DNA of 51,662 bases from a virus (lineage: Duplodnaviria > Heunggongvirae > Uroviricota > Caudoviricetes), in IMG/VR virus record IMGVR_UViG_2526164599_000006. One strand, written 5' to 3'. A program made the translations under genes and the position numbers. The first letter of the stretch is position 1; each line of letters starts with the position of its first letter. The notes under the pieces were generated by a model. It was given only the letters and a program-made list of their open reading frames with translations, was not told the DNA's origin and did not search any database. Positions 4,468-49,644 of the stretch are shown one piece after another.

Positions 4468-4892
4468 TGTTTTTGGTTTTAACTGTTCCGCGTGCGCTCA
4501 GCCGCATTCACCACATCACAAAATTCACTTTAAAAAGGGCGGCAGAGCAGTCACGGAGTAAAACTGATACCGCCAAACGTCACCAGAAAATTGATAACAG
4601 AGGGCGTTGCAGCGGGGTTGTCACTTAAGCGTATGGTCAACCTGACAACCCGGTGTCCTCAACGGGGGAAGGAATAACCCCGCCATACTTACCGCCGCGC
4701 CATTTCGCGGATTGCCACAACCGGAAGCGCACGGTCGACGAAAATTTAACGACAGGCTATCTATGAACCAGCTACCTCGCCGTGCGCTTTCGCGTTATGG
4801 TCTGACTTTTCAGGGAAATATCCTTTCAGTAAACTTGTCAACGCCAAGATTATTGGCCGTTTTTCGCCATTTTTAATGTCCGCTATTGGTCA

Positions 4893-8034: not shown

Positions 8035-8313
8035 TTAGGGAAACTGGCGTCTTGCGTGGATCACGTTTACTACTTCAACGCTTGATGTTGTTACGCGGTA
8101 TAGAATTATATAGTTAGGGTGGGCTACAATCTCACGCAAGCCAGGTACTCTGTCGCTTGGTGGGTATAAATACGGATGTTCGGATAACGGCAGCACACAA
8201 CCCCTTAATCGCTGCCATAAGCGTTCAGCCGCATCTATGTCGAAACGAGCAATATAACTAGTTATATCATCTAGGTCGGTATCTGCGCTTTCAAGCCATA
8301 ACACGGGTAACAT
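8035..8313 (-). CDS. parE2: ParE-family toxin (ParE2-like)
   Basis: 92-aa product from internal Met of the 124-aa ORF (MLPVLWLESADTDLDD...HPNYIILYRV...); start overlaps stop of upstream antitoxin with 1-nt spacing. Confidence 0.8.
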   Translation of the reverse strand: MLPVLWLESADTDLDDITSYIARFDIDAAERLWQRLRGCVLPLSEHPYLYPPSDRVPGLREIVAHPNYIILYRVTTSSVEVVNVIHARRQFP

Positions 8314-8314
8314 T

Positions 8315-8506
8315 TTACTGCTTGCTCCGTTCCTTACGCATCTTAGCAAAGCGTTCTGCCATTCTGCGCTCAACTTCGTCATGGGGAATTGCTGGGCGCG
8401 GATCTGCAAGGCTCGTTGCTACTTTCGCACGCAGCCATTCGTTGTAACTGTTTTCTTGTTCAATGGTTTCAAATTCAGAAACCATTGGTGAAAGGGCTCT
8501 ATTCAT
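8315..8506 (-). CDS. paaA2: PaaA2-like antitoxin
   Basis: 63-aa product (MNRALSPMVSEFETIEQENSYNEWLRAK...) immediately upstream of parE-like gene; matches remembered PaaA2 of the E. coli O157:H7 paaR2-paaA2-parE2 system. Confidence 0.7.
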   Translation of the reverse strand: MNRALSPMVSEFETIEQENSYNEWLRAKVATSLADPRPAIPHDEVERRMAERFAKMRKERSKQ

Positions 8507-8994: not shown

Positions 8995-9297
8995 ATGACA
9001 TTAAAAGAGTTTATTAAATCATTAAGGGTTGGTGATGCTAAGAAATTCGCGGCCAGACTTGGTGTATCGCCATCTTACTTATCGCAAATGGCGTCTGGAC
9101 GAACAGCTATATCTCCAACCCGCGCCCTTATGATCGAATCTGCGACGGAAGGCCAAGTAAGTAGGGCGGAGCTACGACCCCATGATTGGGAGCTTATTTG
9201 GCCTGAGTATGCGAGCGGCATTCGTTTGGGGCAAACACATGTAGTTCATGCTGAAGGTGATTGTAGTACATGCTTATCTGATGGAGTTGATTCATGA
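8995..9297 (+). CDS. Cro/YdaS-like HTH regulator
   Basis: 100-aa ORF with XRE-type HTH (FAARLGVSPSYLSQMASGRTAIS); first gene of rightward operon, divergent from repressor-like gene. Confidence 0.7.
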   Translation: MTLKEFIKSLRVGDAKKFAARLGVSPSYLSQMASGRTAISPTRALMIESATEGQVSRAELRPHDWELIWPEYASGIRLGQTHVVHAEGDCSTCLSDGVDS

Positions 9298-9719
9298 AAA
9301 TCAAGCATGAACACATCCGCATGGCGATGAATGTCTGGGCGCATCCGGACGGCGAAAAAGTACCGGCTGCGAAAATTACCAAAGCGTATTTCGAGCTGGG
9401 AATGACGTTCCCGGAACTGTATGACGACAGCCATCCGGAAGCCCTGGCCCGTAATACCCAGAAAATTTTCCGTTGGCTGGATAAAGACACCCCTGATGCT
9501 GTTGAAAAAATGCAGGCTCTGTTACCGGCGATCGAAAAGGCGATGCCGCCTTTGCTGGTGGCCCGTATGCGCAGCCACAGTTCTGAATATTACCGTGAGA
9601 TCGTCGAACGGAGGGATCGGCTGGTGAAGGATGTCGATGATTTTGTTGCGTCAGCGGTTGTTTTGTATGACCAGATGAATCGCGGCGGCCCGGCAGGGAA
9701 TGCTGTGGTGATGCACTAA
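9294..9719 (+). CDS. YdaT-like protein (CII-position regulator)
   Basis: 141-aa ORF beginning MKIKHEHI, as remembered for Rac YdaT; overlaps stop of upstream gene. Confidence 0.6.
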   Translation: MKIKHEHIRMAMNVWAHPDGEKVPAAKITKAYFELGMTFPELYDDSHPEALARNTQKIFRWLDKDTPDAVEKMQALLPAIEKAMPPLLVARMRSHSSEYYREIVERRDRLVKDVDDFVASAVVLYDQMNRGGPAGNAVVMH

Positions 9720-14554: not shown

Positions 14555-14895
14555 CGACTTTTACCAGAGAGCAGTTAATAGCTCACGCAGAGGAGACTAT
14601 TGAAGCACAGAGACTGTGCATACCGGGCACAATCGACCATGACATCATCCGCACATATAAGATGGATATTGCTGTTCTGGAAATCGCACTGGTATCGCTG
14701 GCAGCAGAGCCAGCCGGTAAATTGCATGAATACAAACCAGTGGGATATCAGCGTCTGGTCGATGAGTTAACCATGCTGGTAAAGCAGTTAACCTGGCAAC
14801 TGAGGAAAGCGAAGCCAGACTGCAAATTACCGGATAAGGCGATGAGTTATCTGGAGCGGAACGGACTGATAAGCGTGGAGGATATTTTACGATGA
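14551..14895 (+). CDS. hypothetical protein
   Basis: 114-aa ORF. Confidence 0.4.
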
Positions 14896-15186
14896 CCTGG
14901 CCTGAAGCATTAACAACGGTAGGAATTGCGATGGCGGTGGCGCTGGTGGTGTATTCGATTTGCCGCTGGGGATAAAAACGGTTTGCGGTAAAGCGAGAGT
15001 TAAGTAGAATTGCTGCGGGTGCTTGAGGCTATCTGCCTCAGGCATGAACACCAAAAGGCAGATAGAGAAAAGCCCCAGTTAACATTACGCGTCCTGCAAG
15101 ACGCTTAACATTAATCTGAGGCCCAATCTATGTCTCACAAATGTAGGTTAGCCTCTTACGTGCCGAAAGGCAAGGAGAAGCAGGCT

Positions 15187-15342
15187 ATGAAGCAGCAAAA
15201 GGCGATGCTAATCGCCCTGATCGTCATCTGTTTAACCGTCATGGTGACGGCACTGGTAACGAGGAAAGACCTCTGCGAGGTACGAATCCGAACCGGCCAG
15301 ACGGAGGTCGCTGTCTTCACAGCTTACGAACCTGAGGAGTAA
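15187..15342 (+). CDS. hokD: Hok/Gef-family small membrane toxin (HokD/RelF-like)
   Basis: 51-aa product MKQQKAMLIALIVICLTVMVTALVTRKDLCEVRIRTGQTEVAVFTAYEPEE; RBS AAGGAG 8 nt upstream; in-frame upstream extension from ATG 15130. Confidence 0.8.
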   Translation: MKQQKAMLIALIVICLTVMVTALVTRKDLCEVRIRTGQTEVAVFTAYEPEE

Positions 15343-15410
15343 GAGACCCGGCGGGGGAGAAATCCCTCGCCACCGCTGATGTGTCAGGCATCCTCAACGC
15401 ACCCGCACTT

Positions 15411-15436
15411 AACCCGCTTCGGCGGGTTTTGTTTTT
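15411..15436 (+). terminator. rho-independent terminator after hok
   Basis: Hairpin ACCCGC-TTCG-GCGGGT followed by TTTTGTTTTT. Confidence 0.5.
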
Positions 15437-15508
15437 CCTGGCATTCTGGTTTACAATTCGCACACCAGCCTGAACAACTGGCACCTGCTGCGCCAGCAGA
15501 GACAACCG

Positions 15509-15787
15509 ATGGCGCACGATACCAAATTACACAATTCTGATAATTCAGCCGTCTTTGCCAGCAGGCGCGGACGGTGTTTTCACGCATTCAAATCTGACTG
15601 GTACCAGCATCCCCCATGCACTGAAGAACAGGCCGAATGGCTCATTCAGTGTTACCGCAGGCGCGGATACGAGGTTAAAAAAGCCCTTAACCTCGACTAC
15701 CGTCACTGGATAATCTCCGTCAGGCTTCCTTACTCTGAACGCCCACCGCGTCCGTCCCGCACATTCCAGCAACGCATCTGGAGGTAA
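15509..15787 (+). CDS. hypothetical protein
   Basis: 92-aa ORF. Confidence 0.35.
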   Translation: MAHDTKLHNSDNSAVFASRRGRCFHAFKSDWYQHPPCTEEQAEWLIQCYRRRGYEVKKALNLDYRHWIISVRLPYSERPPRPSRTFQQRIWR

Positions 15788-15788
15788 C

Positions 15789-16181
15789 GTGCGGGTATTA
15801 CTTCGACCTGTTCTGGTACCGGAACTCGGGCTGGTGATCGTTAAGCCGGGCCGTGAATCCATGCCGGTATTCCACAATACCCGGGTACTGGTGGAGCCGG
15901 AACCGAAAAGCATGCGTAATCTGCCGTCCGGGGTCGTTCCTGCCGTTCGCCAGCCGCTGGCGGAGGATAAATCATTACTGCCATTTTTCAGCGACGAACG
16001 AGTGATTCGTGCTGCTGGTGGCGCTGGCGCATTGTCTGACTGGTTACTGCGCCATGTTAAATCCTGCCAGTGGCCACACGGCGATTATCACCACAGTGAA
16101 ACCGTCATTCACCGTTATGGTACCGGCGCAATGGTGTTGTGCTGGCACTGCGACAACCAGTTGCGTGACCAGACCTCCTAA
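15789..16181 (+). CDS. hypothetical protein with Cys/His cluster
   Basis: 130-aa ORF; CQWPHGDYHH...CWHCDN. Confidence 0.35.
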   Translation: MRVLLRPVLVPELGLVIVKPGRESMPVFHNTRVLVEPEPKSMRNLPSGVVPAVRQPLAEDKSLLPFFSDERVIRAAGGAGALSDWLLRHVKSCQWPHGDYHHSETVIHRYGTGAMVLCWHCDNQLRDQTS

Positions 16182-16220
16182 TCACTTGAGCAACTTGCTC
16201 ACCAAAACCTGTCAGCATGG

Positions 16221-16838
16221 ATGATTGACGTCATTCGTCACGCAATGAATGGCACACAGGAGCGTGAATTATCGCTGGCTGAATTATCCTGGTGGGCGGC
16301 CTGCAATCAGGTGGTGGATGCACTACCTGAGGCAGTAGCGCGTCGTTCGCTGGGATTACCAGCGGAAAAAATCCGCTCCGTATACCGTGAGAGTGACATC
16401 GTACCGGGAGAACAGACAGCCATCAGCATACTGAAGCAGCGCACAAAAAATATTGCGCTGCCACTTCACGTCCACCAGCAACAAAATCCACCACAGGAAA
16501 AGACGGTGGTCAGCATTGCCGTTGATCCGGAGTCTCCGGAATCCTTCATGAAACGACCTAAACGTCGCCGCTGGGTTAACGAGAAATACACGCGCTGGGT
16601 GAAGACACAGCCGTGTGCGTGTTGTGGTAAGCCAGCCGACGATCCCCATCACCTGATTGGTCATGGTCAGGGCGGAATGGGGACAAAATCTCACGATATT
16701 TTCACGCTACCGCTGTGTCGGGAGCATCACAACGAGCTTCATGCGGATCCGCTGGCGTTCGAAGAAAAGCATGGCTCTCAGGTTGATTTAATTTTTCGTT
16801 TTCTTGATCACGCCTTTGCAACCGGCGTGCTCGGGTAA
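16221..16838 (+). CDS. DUF968-like protein with HNH-type motif
   Basis: 205-aa ORF; C-terminal CACCGK...DPHHLIGH...CREHHNELH; sits upstream of rusA as YdfU does in Qin. Confidence 0.5.
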   Translation: MIDVIRHAMNGTQERELSLAELSWWAACNQVVDALPEAVARRSLGLPAEKIRSVYRESDIVPGEQTAISILKQRTKNIALPLHVHQQQNPPQEKTVVSIAVDPESPESFMKRPKRRRWVNEKYTRWVKTQPCACCGKPADDPHHLIGHGQGGMGTKSHDIFTLPLCREHHNELHADPLAFEEKHGSQVDLIFRFLDHAFATGVLG

Positions 16839-19716: not shown

Positions 19717-19792
19717 GGCCCTTTAGCTCAGTGGTGAGAGCGAGCGACTCATAATCGCCAGGTCGCTGGTTCAAATCCAGCAAGGGCCACCA
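19717..19792 (+). tRNA. ileZ: tRNA with CAU anticodon, tRNA-Ile2 (lysidine)-like
   Basis: 76-nt cloverleaf GGCCCTT...AAGGGCCACCA; anticodon loop CTCATAA; close to remembered E. coli ileX. Confidence 0.8.
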
Positions 19793-19892
19793 TCACAAAC
19801 CGCCATTAGCTTATCAGGAAGAGCAGACGACACGATAACAGGGTTGTTGGTGCGGGGGCGGGTCCCCGATGGCGGTCCATTATCGGTATTCA

Positions 19893-19969
19893 GCGTTGTT
19901 AGCTCAGCCGGACAGAGCAATTGCCTTCTAAGCAATCGGTCACTGGTTCGAATCCAGTACAGCGCGCCA
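19893..19969 (+). tRNA. argO: tRNA-Arg (anticodon UCU)
   Basis: 77-nt cloverleaf GCGTTGT...ACAGCGCGCCA; anticodon loop CTTCTAA; TTCGAATCC T-loop. Confidence 0.8.
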
Positions 19970-20433: not shown

Positions 20434-20889
20434 ATACATATCTGGATTATCACCGGTTACGGTAAAAAGTGATTGCTTACTGTTTTTGTGAATGGCATTG
20501 CAGCAGCCGGATAATGTCAGTGCTGGCTGACGGTGTGCTGGTGGCGGGTGTGGTGGTTGCTGCTTTCCCGTTGCTGAAAAAGAAAACGCCAGACTGTTAG
20601 CCGGGTATCAGTTAGCGGGAGAAATTTTTAAATACTTCACAATTCAGGCGGTTGACTGTTGTCTGGTTTGCGGGGAGTTTGTTAAAAGAAACTGGCATGG
20701 TGAATCCCCCTGTGCGGAGGGGCAATCAGCGAGTAGGTATATGGGATAATCGCGGATTCAGGTGCTGGTACTGAATTCACCGGGAGGCACCCGGCACCAT
20801 GCAATGGCACATAGCGCCACTCTCCAGCCCCTCTCCGGAGGGGCTGTTTATATTGATTTTGTCAGATGTGAGTAAACTCCTTATGGACT

Positions 20890-49060: not shown

Positions 49061-49644
49061 TGGCATTCAGAATGAGTGAACAAGCACGGACCATAAAAAT
49101 TTATAATCTGCTGGCCGGAACTAATGAATTTATTGGTGAAGGTGACGCATATATTCCGCCTCATACAGGTCTGCCAGCAAACAGTACCGATATTGCACCA
49201 CCAGATATTCCTGCTGGCTTTGTGGCTGTTTTCAACAGTGATGAGGCATCGTGGCATCTCGTTGAAGACCATCGGGGAAAAACGGTTTATGACGTAGCGT
49301 CAGGGGACGAGTTATTTATTTCTGAACTCGGTCCGTTACCGGAAAATGTTACCTGGTTATCGCCGGAAGGGGAGTTTCAGAAGTGGAACGGCACAGCCTG
49401 GGTGAAGGATACGGAAGCAGAAAAAATGTTCCGGATCCGGGAGGCGGAAGAAACAAAAAACAACCTGATGCAGGTAGCCAGTGAGCATATTGCGCCGCTT
49501 CAGGATGCTGCAGATCTGGAAATTGCAACGGAGGAAGAAACCTCATTGCTGGAAGCCTGGAAAAAGTATCGGGTGTTGCTGAACCGTGTTGATACATCAA
49601 CTGCACCTGATATTGAGTGGCCTACGAACCCTGTCAGGGAGTAA
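49060..49644 (+). CDS. tfa: tail fibre assembly protein Tfa
   Basis: 194-aa ORF overlapping stf stop; Tfa-like N- and C-termini. Confidence 0.85.

What the first reader, a model, noticed from the sequence alone, without database searches (positions are those of the whole stretch)
15130..15436. Standalone hok-family toxin locus in the nin-like region
A 51-aa Hok/Gef-family toxin gene with strong RBS and downstream terminator is present without adjacent relBE. An in-frame upstream ORF (from 15130) covers the leader, and the leader should encode an antisense sok-like RNA if the locus is regulated in the classical way. Whether this copy is active or lacks regulatory elements cannot be decided from sequence alone.
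Basis: partly seen in the sequence, partly recalled or inferred. Interest (0 to 1): 0.45.

Follow-up and report, generated by a model that had tools for sequence, protein, structure and literature searches.

The report
Complete hok/mok/sok toxin-antitoxin locus
This is an ordinary, fully equipped copy of the well-known hok/sok RNA-regulated toxin-antitoxin module (HokD/HokW type) in the early-gene region of an E. coli-type lambdoid prophage; relatives occur in most E. coli genomes.

Summary
Window 15187-15342 encodes a 51-aa Hok/Gef toxin, 50/51 identical to E. coli K-12 HokD. It has an in-frame upstream ORF from 15130, a terminator at 15411-15428, and no relBE anywhere in the window.

The locus starts at about 15017 (promoter -10 at 15005-15010), and all the classical regulatory elements lie in or around that leader:
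- The Rfam hok-leader model ("sok", RF01794) scores 121.7 bits against a threshold of 59.
- A 12-bp pairing of the 5' and 3' ends (fbi) competes with an alternative 5' hairpin (tac). Both are supported by compensatory changes across 44 related loci.
- The upstream ORF is the mok reading frame.
- The hok ribosome-binding site is masked by a conserved anti-SD hairpin.
- An antisense Sok gene lies at 15138->15068 on the minus strand. Its promoter is identical to the experimentally mutated sokW promoter of phage 933W/Sp5.

The locus is 91.7% identical to the hokW/mokW/sokW locus, annotated in the 933W record and shown experimentally to be a type I TA system in 2021. It is the intact form of the truncated hokD of prophage Qin. 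Matching DNA occurs in 4756 of 5426 complete E. coli genomes.

Verdict: already known, low interest. Transcription and toxicity were not testable here.

The parts
15005..15010 (+). hok promoter -10 hexamer TAGAAT. A candidate -35 TTGCGG lies at 14983-14988 with a 16-nt spacer; it is weak and was read by eye.
   Evidence: The hexamer sits 6 nt upstream of the first base of the Rfam leader match. Positions 2 (A) and 6 (T) are invariant in 44 aligned loci. The consensus scan did not flag it, and the -35 is not conserved.
15017..15434 (+). Full-length hok mRNA, about 418 nt.
   Evidence: The 5' end is taken from the start of the Rfam RF01794 match (model position 1). The 3' end is taken from the terminator. 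The MFE is -170 kcal/mol with the two ends paired.
15017..15028 (+). 5' element that pairs either with the 3' end (fbi) or within the tac hairpin.
   Evidence: MFE fold of the full-length RNA. Across 44 loci 92.2% of cells are paired, against 33-55% when the partner is slid, and a U:A->C:G compensatory change occurs in 11 loci.
15019..15045 (+). tac (translational activator) hairpin, formed once the 3' end is removed.
   Evidence: Folds of RNAs truncated at or before 15390. 96.9% of cells are paired, against 32-48% slid. Column 63 (window 15020) covaries with this partner as well as with the fbi partner.
15068..15138 (-). Sok antisense RNA gene, about 71 nt: a 5' single-stranded tail, a long hairpin and a U-rich tail.
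   Evidence: Mapped from the sokW misc_RNA annotated in phage 933W. The fold is -32.7 kcal/mol with z=-4.81, hairpin followed by UUUUCUCU. It is complementary to SDmok and the mok AUG.
15145..15173 (-). Sok promoter: -35 TTGCCT (15173->15168), 17-nt spacer, -10 TAACCT (15150->15145).
   Evidence: The sequence 15141-15189 is identical to 933W. Primers YO-421/422 of Takada 2021 (PMC8621323) change the + strand TAGGTTAG to CCGGCTCG for the 'pro-less' mutant, which lost antitoxin activity. TTGCC and the two key -10 positions are invariant in 44 loci. The hexamers score only 7 of 12 against consensus, so the scan did not flag them.
15118..15121 (+). Shine-Dalgarno of mok (GAGG), 8 nt before the mok ATG.
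   Evidence: Sequence. GAGG is nearly invariant in the alignment. It lies in the base of the long hairpin 15072-15122 in the folds.
15125..15149 (+). Sok-target hairpin enclosing the mok AUG: 9-bp stem and loop CUCACAA, which contains a YUNR motif (CUCA).
   Evidence: and the Rfam consensus structure. The sequence varies between loci, so it is a likely specificity determinant.
15130..15342 (+). mok reading frame, 70 codons. Here it is in frame with hok, so its product is an N-terminally extended Hok.
   Evidence: The equivalent ORF is annotated mokW in 933W. The ATG is conserved in 39 of 44 loci. It is in frame in 29 and opens a long ORF in the +1 frame in 8.
15151..15181 (+). Hairpin that masks the hok Shine-Dalgarno: anti-SD GCCUCUU pairs with AAGGAGAAGC.
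   Evidence: MFE. Helix 6 is 85.9% paired across 44 loci and GCCTCTT is invariant.
15187..15342 (+). hok toxin gene, 51 aa, HokD/HokW type.
   Evidence: Pfam PF01848 at 82.6 bits. 50/51 identical to K-12 HokD. The exact sequence is on 194 public contigs, named 'type I toxin-antitoxin system toxin HokD'.
15325..15328 (+). TACG motif (Tyr47 codon TAC + G), the known TadA A-to-I editing motif that recodes Tyr to Cys in hokC/D/E mRNAs.
   Evidence: TACGAA is invariant in all 44 loci. The coding sequence here is identical to K-12 hokD, which is reported 6% edited (PMC12214031; PMC5630033).
15350..15371 (+). Conserved GC-rich 3' UTR hairpin (GGCGGGGGA GAAA UCCCUCGCC).
   Evidence: MFE. Helix 15 is 88.8% paired, with 4 pairs showing changes on both sides.
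15392..15404 (+). fbi (fold-back inhibition) 3' element CCUCAACGCACCC.
   Evidence: GCACCC or GCGCCC is conserved in all 44 loci.
15411..15436 (+). Intrinsic terminator of hok mRNA.
   Evidence: 7-bp stem with 5 GC pairs, 4-nt loop, T-rich tail.

Best explanation
Window ~14983-15436 holds a complete hok/mok/sok type I toxin-antitoxin module of the HokD/HokW type. It sits in the nin-equivalent region of a Rac/Qin-like lambdoid prophage, co-oriented with the early-right genes.

Shown here from sequence:
- An intact 51-aa Hok membrane toxin.
- A hok mRNA of about 418 nt whose first 12 nt pair with a box about 30 nt from the 3' end (fbi).
- An alternative 5' hairpin (tac) that uses the same 5' nucleotides.
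- An upstream reading frame (mok) whose ribosome-binding site and AUG lie inside the region complementary to the antisense RNA.
- A hok Shine-Dalgarno masked by a conserved anti-SD hairpin.
- A ~71-nt antisense Sok gene with its own promoter and terminator on the minus strand.

Inferred from the established R1 hok/sok mechanism (Gerdes laboratory) and from hokW-sokW experiments: the stable full-length mRNA is closed, untranslatable and refractory to Sok. Slow 3' trimming removes fbi, the 5' end refolds into tac, and the mok initiation region opens. Then either abundant but unstable Sok binds and the duplex is cut by RNase III, or, when Sok is depleted, mok is translated and coupled translation of hok yields the toxin. 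Hok inserts in the inner membrane and collapses membrane potential. A small fraction of the message may also be edited by TadA at TACG (Tyr47->Cys).

The most likely biological role is the one shown for Sp5: Sok disappears on prophage induction and Hok then accelerates host killing and lysis and raises phage release. Post-segregational stabilisation of the prophage is the alternative.

The confidence of 0.9 refers to the identity and architecture of the locus. The specific biological role is far less certain, at about 0.45 for the induction/lysis-helper role.
For: Toxin: Pfam HOK_GEF at 82.6 bits. The protein is 50/51 identical to K-12 HokD and is named HokD in public records.

Leader: Rfam RF01794 at 121.7 bits against a gathering score of 59, E=7e-29, full model length.

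fbi and tac: the MFE folds switch exactly as in the classical model when the 3' end is removed. Across 44 loci from Escherichia, Kluyvera, Photorhabdus, Pantoea and Citrobacter, fbi is 92.2% paired (33-55% in slid controls) and tac is 96.9% paired (32-48% slid). The same 5' column changes U->C together with A->G in both partners. The whole fold is 82.8% paired against about 42% slid, with 49 pairs changed on both sides against 20-30.

mok: the ATG is conserved in 39 of 44 loci, and the frame is either in phase or +1, as expected for a coupling ORF rather than a conserved protein.

Sok: it maps onto the annotated sokW of 933W. The fold has z=-4.81 with a U-tail. The promoter is identical to the one whose mutation abolished antitoxin activity (PMC8621323).

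hokW-sokW, 91.7% identical over 515 nt, was shown to be toxic, neutralised by sokW, and to double Sp5 release.

Intactness: K-12 hokD shares only window ~15172 onward, with relE upstream instead of the leader.
Against: No expression data exist for this copy, so promoter activity, Sok transcription, 3' processing and toxicity are all inferred. Both promoters are poor consensus matches, and the scan found none at its threshold. NCBIfam Hok models score below their curated cut-offs (48.8 against 73). Intact chromosomal hokA/B/C loci were reported not to mediate post-segregational killing or respond to rifampicin (Pedersen & Gerdes 1999, as summarised in the preprint 10.1101/2025.08.07.668861). 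In 933W the experimentally studied hokW lies near the right end of the genome record, not in the nin region, so its induction behaviour may not transfer. This Hok carries Met19 where K-12 HokD and HokW have Ile; the change is conservative but untested.
Confidence: 0.9

Rival explanations
1. The locus is structurally intact but physiologically silent. The elements are conserved and transcribed, but the module neither kills after loss of the prophage nor affects induction, as was reported for intact chromosomal hokA, hokB and hokC loci.
For: [quoted passage not shown] The promoters match consensus poorly.
Against: The closely related prophage-borne hokW-sokW has measurable phenotypes. There is strong purifying and compensatory conservation of all RNA elements across genera. 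The ORF is intact, and the exact protein recurs on 194 contigs.
Confidence: 0.2
2. The main role is defence of the lysogen against other phages by abortive infection. Shut-off of host transcription by an infecting phage depletes Sok, and Hok kills the cell before the invader matures.
For: [quoted passage not shown]
Against: [quoted passage not shown] The only direct test of a prophage hok showed a pro-phage role.
Confidence: 0.12
3. The locus is a decaying remnant like K-12 hokD (relF), meaning a toxin ORF without working regulation.
For: The protein is 98% identical to K-12 HokD, whose locus lacks the leader.
Against: The full leader, mok, Sok gene, fbi and terminator are all present, and the leader scores far above the Rfam threshold.
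Confidence: 0.03

Closest known systems
hokW / mokW / sokW of Shiga-toxin phage 933W and Sakai prophage Sp5 (GenBank AF125520; Takada et al. 2021, PMC8621323)
   Same: 91.7% nucleotide identity over 515 nt. The architecture is the same: mok in frame with hok, and a 71-nt antisense RNA. The Sok promoter and the SD-hok hairpin are identical. Hok is 46/51 identical by my count from the translations.
   Different: In 933W the locus lies near the right end of the genome record, on the opposite strand to the structural genes. Here it lies between the Ead/Ea22/DUF551-type genes and DUF968-RusA-Q. The first ~10 nt of Sok and the mok N-terminus differ (GUGAGACAUAG against GUUCAGCAUGG), so the two Sok RNAs probably do not cross-react fully. 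The Hok C-terminus differs (TAYEPEE against VDYESEK).
hokD (relF) of the relB-relE-hokD operon, cryptic prophage Qin, E. coli K-12
   Same: Hok is 50/51 identical. The 3' UTR, fbi box and terminator are the same. The position in the prophage is the same, upstream of ydfU (DUF968) and the Q-like antiterminator.
   Different: K-12 homology begins only at the hok Shine-Dalgarno (window ~15172). In K-12, relE replaces the leader, mok and Sok, so K-12 hokD has no antisense control. Here they are all present and relBE is absent.
hok/sok (parB) of plasmid R1, the archetype
   Same: The logic is the same: fbi/tac alternative pairing, mok-coupled translation, antisense RNA against the mok initiation region, and a target hairpin with a YUNR loop.
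   Different: The toxin sequence is distant: HokW is 44% identical to R1 Hok according to PMC8621323, and I did not align R1 directly. The carrier is a prophage, not a plasmid. mok is in frame with hok here. The target/terminator hairpin is 16-18 nt longer than the Rfam consensus.
hokC (gef)/mokC/sokC-type chromosomal loci of Escherichia
   Same: The leader layout is the same and mok is in frame (loci L024-L028). The TACG editing motif is the same.
   Different: Hok is about 80% identical. These loci lack the 16-18-nt hairpin insertion. They sit at a chromosomal site rather than in a prophage.

Membership tests
[quoted passage not shown] | A toxin ORF of about 50 aa matching Pfam PF01848, with an N-terminal transmembrane helix and the conserved RKDLCEV...TEVAVF core. 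| tested here: met
   82.6 bits against a cut-off of 22. The core is conserved in the alignment of 44 loci. Caveat: the NCBIfam Hok models score below their curated cut-offs (48.8 against 73).
[quoted passage not shown] | A conserved hok mRNA 5' leader (Rfam RF01794). | tested here: met
   121.7 bits against a gathering score of 59, model positions 1-157 of 157, on the + strand.
[quoted passage not shown] | Fold-back inhibition: the 5' end pairs with a box near the 3' end of the full-length mRNA. | tested here: met
   15017-15028 pairs with 15392-15404 in the MFE fold. 92.2% of cells are paired across 44 loci, against 33-55% in slid controls, and 11 loci carry the compensatory C:G.
[quoted passage not shown] | An alternative tac hairpin at the 5' end after 3' processing. 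| tested here: met
   It forms in all folds truncated at or before 15390. 96.9% of cells are paired, against 32-48% slid, with covariation at the shared column. The 3' processing itself is not testable here.
[quoted passage not shown] | A mok reading frame that starts upstream and reads across the hok start. | tested here: met
   ORF 15130-15342. The ATG is conserved in 39 of 44 loci. The equivalent ORF is annotated mokW in 933W.
[quoted passage not shown] | A cis-encoded antisense Sok RNA with its own promoter and terminator, complementary to the mok initiation region. | tested here: inconclusive
   The sequence features are present: a promoter identical to the experimentally mutated sokW promoter, a terminator hairpin with U-tail at z=-4.81, and complementarity that covers SDmok and the AUG. 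Transcription in this strain cannot be shown with these tools, and the consensus promoter scan found nothing.
[quoted passage not shown] | Toxicity of Hok and neutralisation by Sok; killing on loss of Sok. | not testable with these tools
   These were shown only for the 91.7%-identical hokW-sokW (PMC8621323).
relBE-hokD (relF) operon arrangement of prophage Qin | hok lies immediately downstream of relE and lacks its own leader, mok and Sok. | tested here: not met
   There is no RelE or RelB match in the window. The full leader is present where K-12 has relE. The protein is HokD by name, but the locus is not the relBEF arrangement.
TadA-edited hok mRNAs (hokC/D/E class) | A Tyr codon TAC inside a TACG motif at the position aligned with Cys46 of HokB. 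| tested here: met
   TACG lies at 15325-15328 (Tyr47). TACGAA is invariant in 44 loci. The coding sequence is identical to K-12 hokD, which is reported 6% edited. Editing itself is not testable here.

The most novel reading that the evidence does not exclude
The module lies inside the early-right operon and points the same way as it (YdaS/cro-like gene through Q). Prophage induction could therefore switch it on directly. Antiterminated read-through from the early promoter would run head-on into the Sok promoter and silence it by transcriptional interference. It would also supply hok message with an extended 5' end that cannot form the native fbi closure. Hok would then be an induction-timed auxiliary lysis factor, and the hok terminator would double as a nin-type terminator in the uninduced or non-antiterminated state. 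This would explain mechanistically the RecA-dependent disappearance of sokW that Takada et al. left open.
Probability: 0.2. Interest if true: 0.35.

Novelty: already known. Interest (0 to 1): 0.1.

Why it matters
It matters little for discovery. The locus is an annotated, widespread and experimentally characterised kind of module, and this copy adds no new feature. It is useful in three smaller ways. First, it is a clean example of the intact ancestor of the truncated K-12 hokD/relF gene. Second, it corrects the annotation: the locus is about 113 nt longer on the 5' side than the interval given, and the Rfam 'sok' hit lies on the hok-sense strand. Third, it is a candidate for testing whether nin-region hok modules are switched on by early-operon read-through during induction.

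Tried and rejected
1. The sigma-70 consensus scan of 14800-15600 found no promoter on either strand. I therefore relied on homology to the mutated sokW promoter and on column conservation rather than on a consensus match.

2. NCBIfam gave only sub-threshold Hok hits, so naming rests on Pfam, PHROG and the names given to the identical protein in public records.

3. I considered that the locus might be a relF-like remnant. The alignment with K-12 rejects this.

4. I considered that the 70-aa ORF might be the real toxin gene and the 51-aa call an artefact. I rejected this because 8 related loci start the upstream ORF at the same ATG in a different frame. What is conserved is translation across the hok start, not the N-terminal extension.

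5. A crude test for a YUNR loop in the Sok-target hairpin across the family gave only 19 of 44. Local MFE folding of a 30-nt piece is unreliable, so I use it only for the window sequence.

6. A weak isrK match (27.2 bits, below the gathering score of 50) on the hok 3' UTR was not pursued.

7. I did not retrieve the R1 hok/sok sequence for a direct alignment. The comparison with R1 rests on the Rfam model and on the literature.

Full report
**Observation.** ATG 15187 to TAA 15340-15342 encodes a 51-aa peptide. It matches Pfam HOK_GEF at 82.6 bits (cut-off 22, E=1.4e-23) and PHROG 251 'MokW-like host killing' (E=1.8e-32). An ATG at 15130 opens a 70-codon frame that is in phase with hok. AAGGAG lies 9 nt before the hok ATG. 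A terminator-like hairpin at 15411-15428 is followed by a T-run. tblastn with K-12 RelE and RelB finds nothing in the 51.6-kb window, and hok is single-copy there. The protein is 50/51 identical to K-12 HokD (Ile19->Met). This exact sequence is on 194 public contigs under the name 'type I toxin-antitoxin system toxin HokD'.

**Context.** The window is a lambdoid prophage. YdaS/YdaT-like (Rac-type cro/cII) genes lie at 8995-9716. After them come replication-type genes, Ead/Ea22 and DUF551-like ORFs, then hok, then a DUF968/HNH gene, RusA, antiterminator Q, a DNA methylase and two tRNAs. All of these are on the + strand. This is the order found in cryptic prophage Qin of K-12: hokD, rem, ydfU, ydfT/Q. 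'nin-like region' is therefore an apt description.

**Extent of the locus.** Rfam RF01794 ('sok') matches 15017-15192 at 121.7 bits (gathering score 59, E=7e-29) over the whole 157-position model. The match is on the plus strand. The model describes the hok mRNA leader from its 5' end to the hok AUG, not the antisense transcript itself. The locus thus starts about 113 nt upstream of the coordinate given. A TAGAAT hexamer at 15005-15010, 6 nt before the first base of the match, is conserved as TAnAAT, with A2 and T6 invariant in 44 loci. It is the likely hok -10.

**Relation to known loci.** Megablast finds matching DNA in 4756 of 5426 complete E. coli genomes, annotated hokD, and in 84 phage records. 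Phage 933W is 91.7% identical over 515 nt and carries annotated mokW, hokW and a 71-nt 'SokW antisense RNA'. By alignment, sokW corresponds to window 15138->15068 on the minus strand. K-12 hokD aligns only from window ~15172 (the hok Shine-Dalgarno) to the terminator. Upstream of that point K-12 has relE. The window therefore carries the intact form of the locus that is truncated in the relBE-hokD operon.

**RNA anatomy: fbi and tac.** The MFE fold of 15017-15434 (-170 kcal/mol) pairs 15017-15028 with 15392-15404, which is the fold-back-inhibition arrangement. When the 3' end is cut back to 15390 or further, the same 5' nucleotides form a hairpin spanning 15019-15045, the tac element.

**RNA anatomy: other elements in the full-length fold.**
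- The mok Shine-Dalgarno (GAGG, 15118-15121) sits in the base of a long hairpin (15072-15122).
- The mok AUG sits in a 9-bp hairpin whose loop, CUCACAA, contains a YUNR motif.
- The hok Shine-Dalgarno is paired with an invariant anti-SD, GCCUCUU, in a hairpin at 15151-15181.
- The hok AUG region (15182-15196) pairs with 15311-15326 inside the coding region.

**Comparative test.** I fetched 66 hok loci from one genome per species and aligned 42 of them that have a leader, together with 933W and the window (44 rows in all). Five loci of the relE-linked type lack the leader (seen) and were left out, as were fragments and copies with other damage.

| Structure | Cells paired | Slid controls | Compensatory evidence |
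|---|---|---|---|
| fbi helix | 92.2% | 33-55% | U:A replaced by C:G in 11 loci |
| tac hairpin | 96.9% | 32-48% | the same 5' column covaries with its tac partner in 12 loci |
| whole full-length fold | 82.8% | about 42% | 49 pairs changed on both sides, against 20-30 |

One nucleotide covarying with two alternative partners is the signature of the mutually exclusive structures proposed for hok mRNAs. The structure was derived from one member of the alignment, which by itself inflates 'cells paired'. The compensatory changes are independent of that bias.

**mok.** The ATG aligned with 15130 is present in 39 of 44 loci. In 29 it is in frame with hok. In 8 it opens a 55-69-codon ORF in the +1 frame, and in 2 only a short one. 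What is conserved is translation into the hok start, not the peptide. This fits the coupling role assigned to mok.

**Sok.** The predicted RNA (15138->15068) has a ~14-nt unpaired 5' end, a long hairpin and a UUUUCUCU tail. Its fold is -32.7 kcal/mol with z=-4.81. Its promoter, read on the minus strand, is TTGCCT (15173-15168), 17 nt, TAACCT (15150-15145). That is only 7 of 12 consensus matches, so the scan missed it. Three lines support it all the same:
- The 49 nt from 15141 to 15189 are identical to 933W.
- The 'pro-less' primers of Takada et al. change exactly this hexamer region, and that mutant lost antitoxin activity (PMC8621323).
- TTGCC and the two critical -10 positions are invariant in 44 loci.

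The first ~10 nt of Sok differ from sokW. This may limit cross-talk between copies; that is an inference.

**Mechanism.** The steps shown here are the presence and conservation of every element. The steps inferred come from the R1 hok/sok paradigm and from hokW-sokW. These are a closed, stable full-length mRNA; slow 3' trimming; tac refolding; Sok binding and RNase III cleavage, or mok-coupled hok translation when Sok is depleted; and membrane damage by Hok. For hokW-sokW, Takada et al. showed toxicity, neutralisation by sokW, and partial dependence on RNase III and Hfq. They also showed RecA-dependent loss of sokW and appearance of HokW in the inner membrane after mitomycin C, and a two-fold lower phage yield without the locus. 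I take that as the most likely role here, with prophage stabilisation as the alternative. A further known layer is TadA editing. TACG at 15325-15328 (Tyr47) is invariant in all 44 loci. It is the motif by which hokC/D/E mRNAs are recoded Tyr->Cys, with K-12 hokD edited at 6%.

**Rivals.**
- Silent locus: intact chromosomal hokA/B/C loci failed in post-segregational killing tests (summarised).
- Abortive-infection role: R1 hok/sok reduces T4 plating, but hok is not enriched near defence systems.
- Decaying remnant: excluded by the intact leader.

**Novelty.** None. The locus type is annotated in the 933W phage record, was tested experimentally in 2021, was surveyed in 2025-26, when hok was reported enriched in prophages, and is named by RefSeq. 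The only reading with some novelty is that the nin-region position couples Sok silencing to early-operon read-through. This is untested, and the studied hokW sits elsewhere in its phage.

**Verdict.** It is an already known system, and interest is about 0.1.

Noticed in passing
window 15789-16838 (+), stop at 16179-16181: The ydfU-like DUF968/HNH gene has exactly the length of K-12 ydfU (1050 nt). It is interrupted by an in-frame TAA where K-12 has Glu131 (GAA). This leaves a 130-aa ORF and a 205-aa ORF that restarts at 16221. It is probably a nonsense pseudogene.
   Followed up: partly
window 14892-14975 (+): A 27-aa hydrophobic ORF ([27 protein letters not shown]) has an ATG that overlaps the stop of the upstream 114-aa ORF (ATGA). 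It has no family hit. A cloning primer in Takada 2021 (YO-432...ATGACCTGGCCTGAAGC) matches the start of this ORF, so the same start may precede hokW in Sp5. It may be a small membrane peptide.
   Followed up: no
window 15017-15192 (+): The Rfam family named 'sok antitoxin' (RF01794) matches the hok-sense strand and spans the whole hok leader (157 nt). The real Sok is about 71 nt on the opposite strand. A hit says 'hok leader present', not 'antisense RNA on this strand'.
   Followed up: yes
window 15087-15104 (+): The Sok-terminator/target hairpin carries a 16-18-nt palindromic insertion (CGCGTCCTGCAAGACGC) relative to the Rfam consensus. The insertion is shared by HokD/HokW-type and some Kluyvera loci but is absent from HokC-type and Photorhabdus loci.
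   Followed up: partly
alignment A2 (loci L014-L016, L033, L034, L036, L038, L039 against the rest): Across the family, mok starts at the same ATG but is in frame with hok in 29 loci and in the +1 frame, with a long ORF, in 8. A 1-nt indel in the SD-hok hairpin loop flips the frame without destroying the ORF.
   Followed up: partly
window 15351-15432 (+): The hok 3' UTR gives a sub-threshold match to isrK, a Salmonella Hfq-binding RNA (27.2 bits against a gathering score of 50, E=0.0018). It is probably only the shared architecture of two hairpins and a terminator.
   Followed up: no
window 8038-8409 (-): A ParE-family type II toxin ORF (Pfam 59.5 bits) lies on the minus strand just upstream of the YdaS/YdaT genes. 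It is a second toxin-antitoxin candidate in this prophage. Its antitoxin was not looked for.
   Followed up: no
window 4537-4588 (-), 20666-20855 (+), 49403-49601 (+), 19717-19969 (+): Other Rfam matches at or above gathering score are DicF (76.7 bits), STnc100 (132.4 bits) and IS009 (223.8 bits). tRNA-Met(cat) and tRNA-Arg(tct) lie downstream of Q and the methylase.
   Followed up: no
loci L013 (Veillonella parvula MAG), L023 (Acinetobacter idrijaensis), L030 (Xanthomonas pisi), L069 (Candidatus Scatousia MAG): hok copies 93-98% identical to the E. coli type sit on contigs assigned to unrelated taxa; three of the four contigs are under 3 kb. This is most simply explained by Escherichia contamination or mis-binning in those assemblies.
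   Followed up: no
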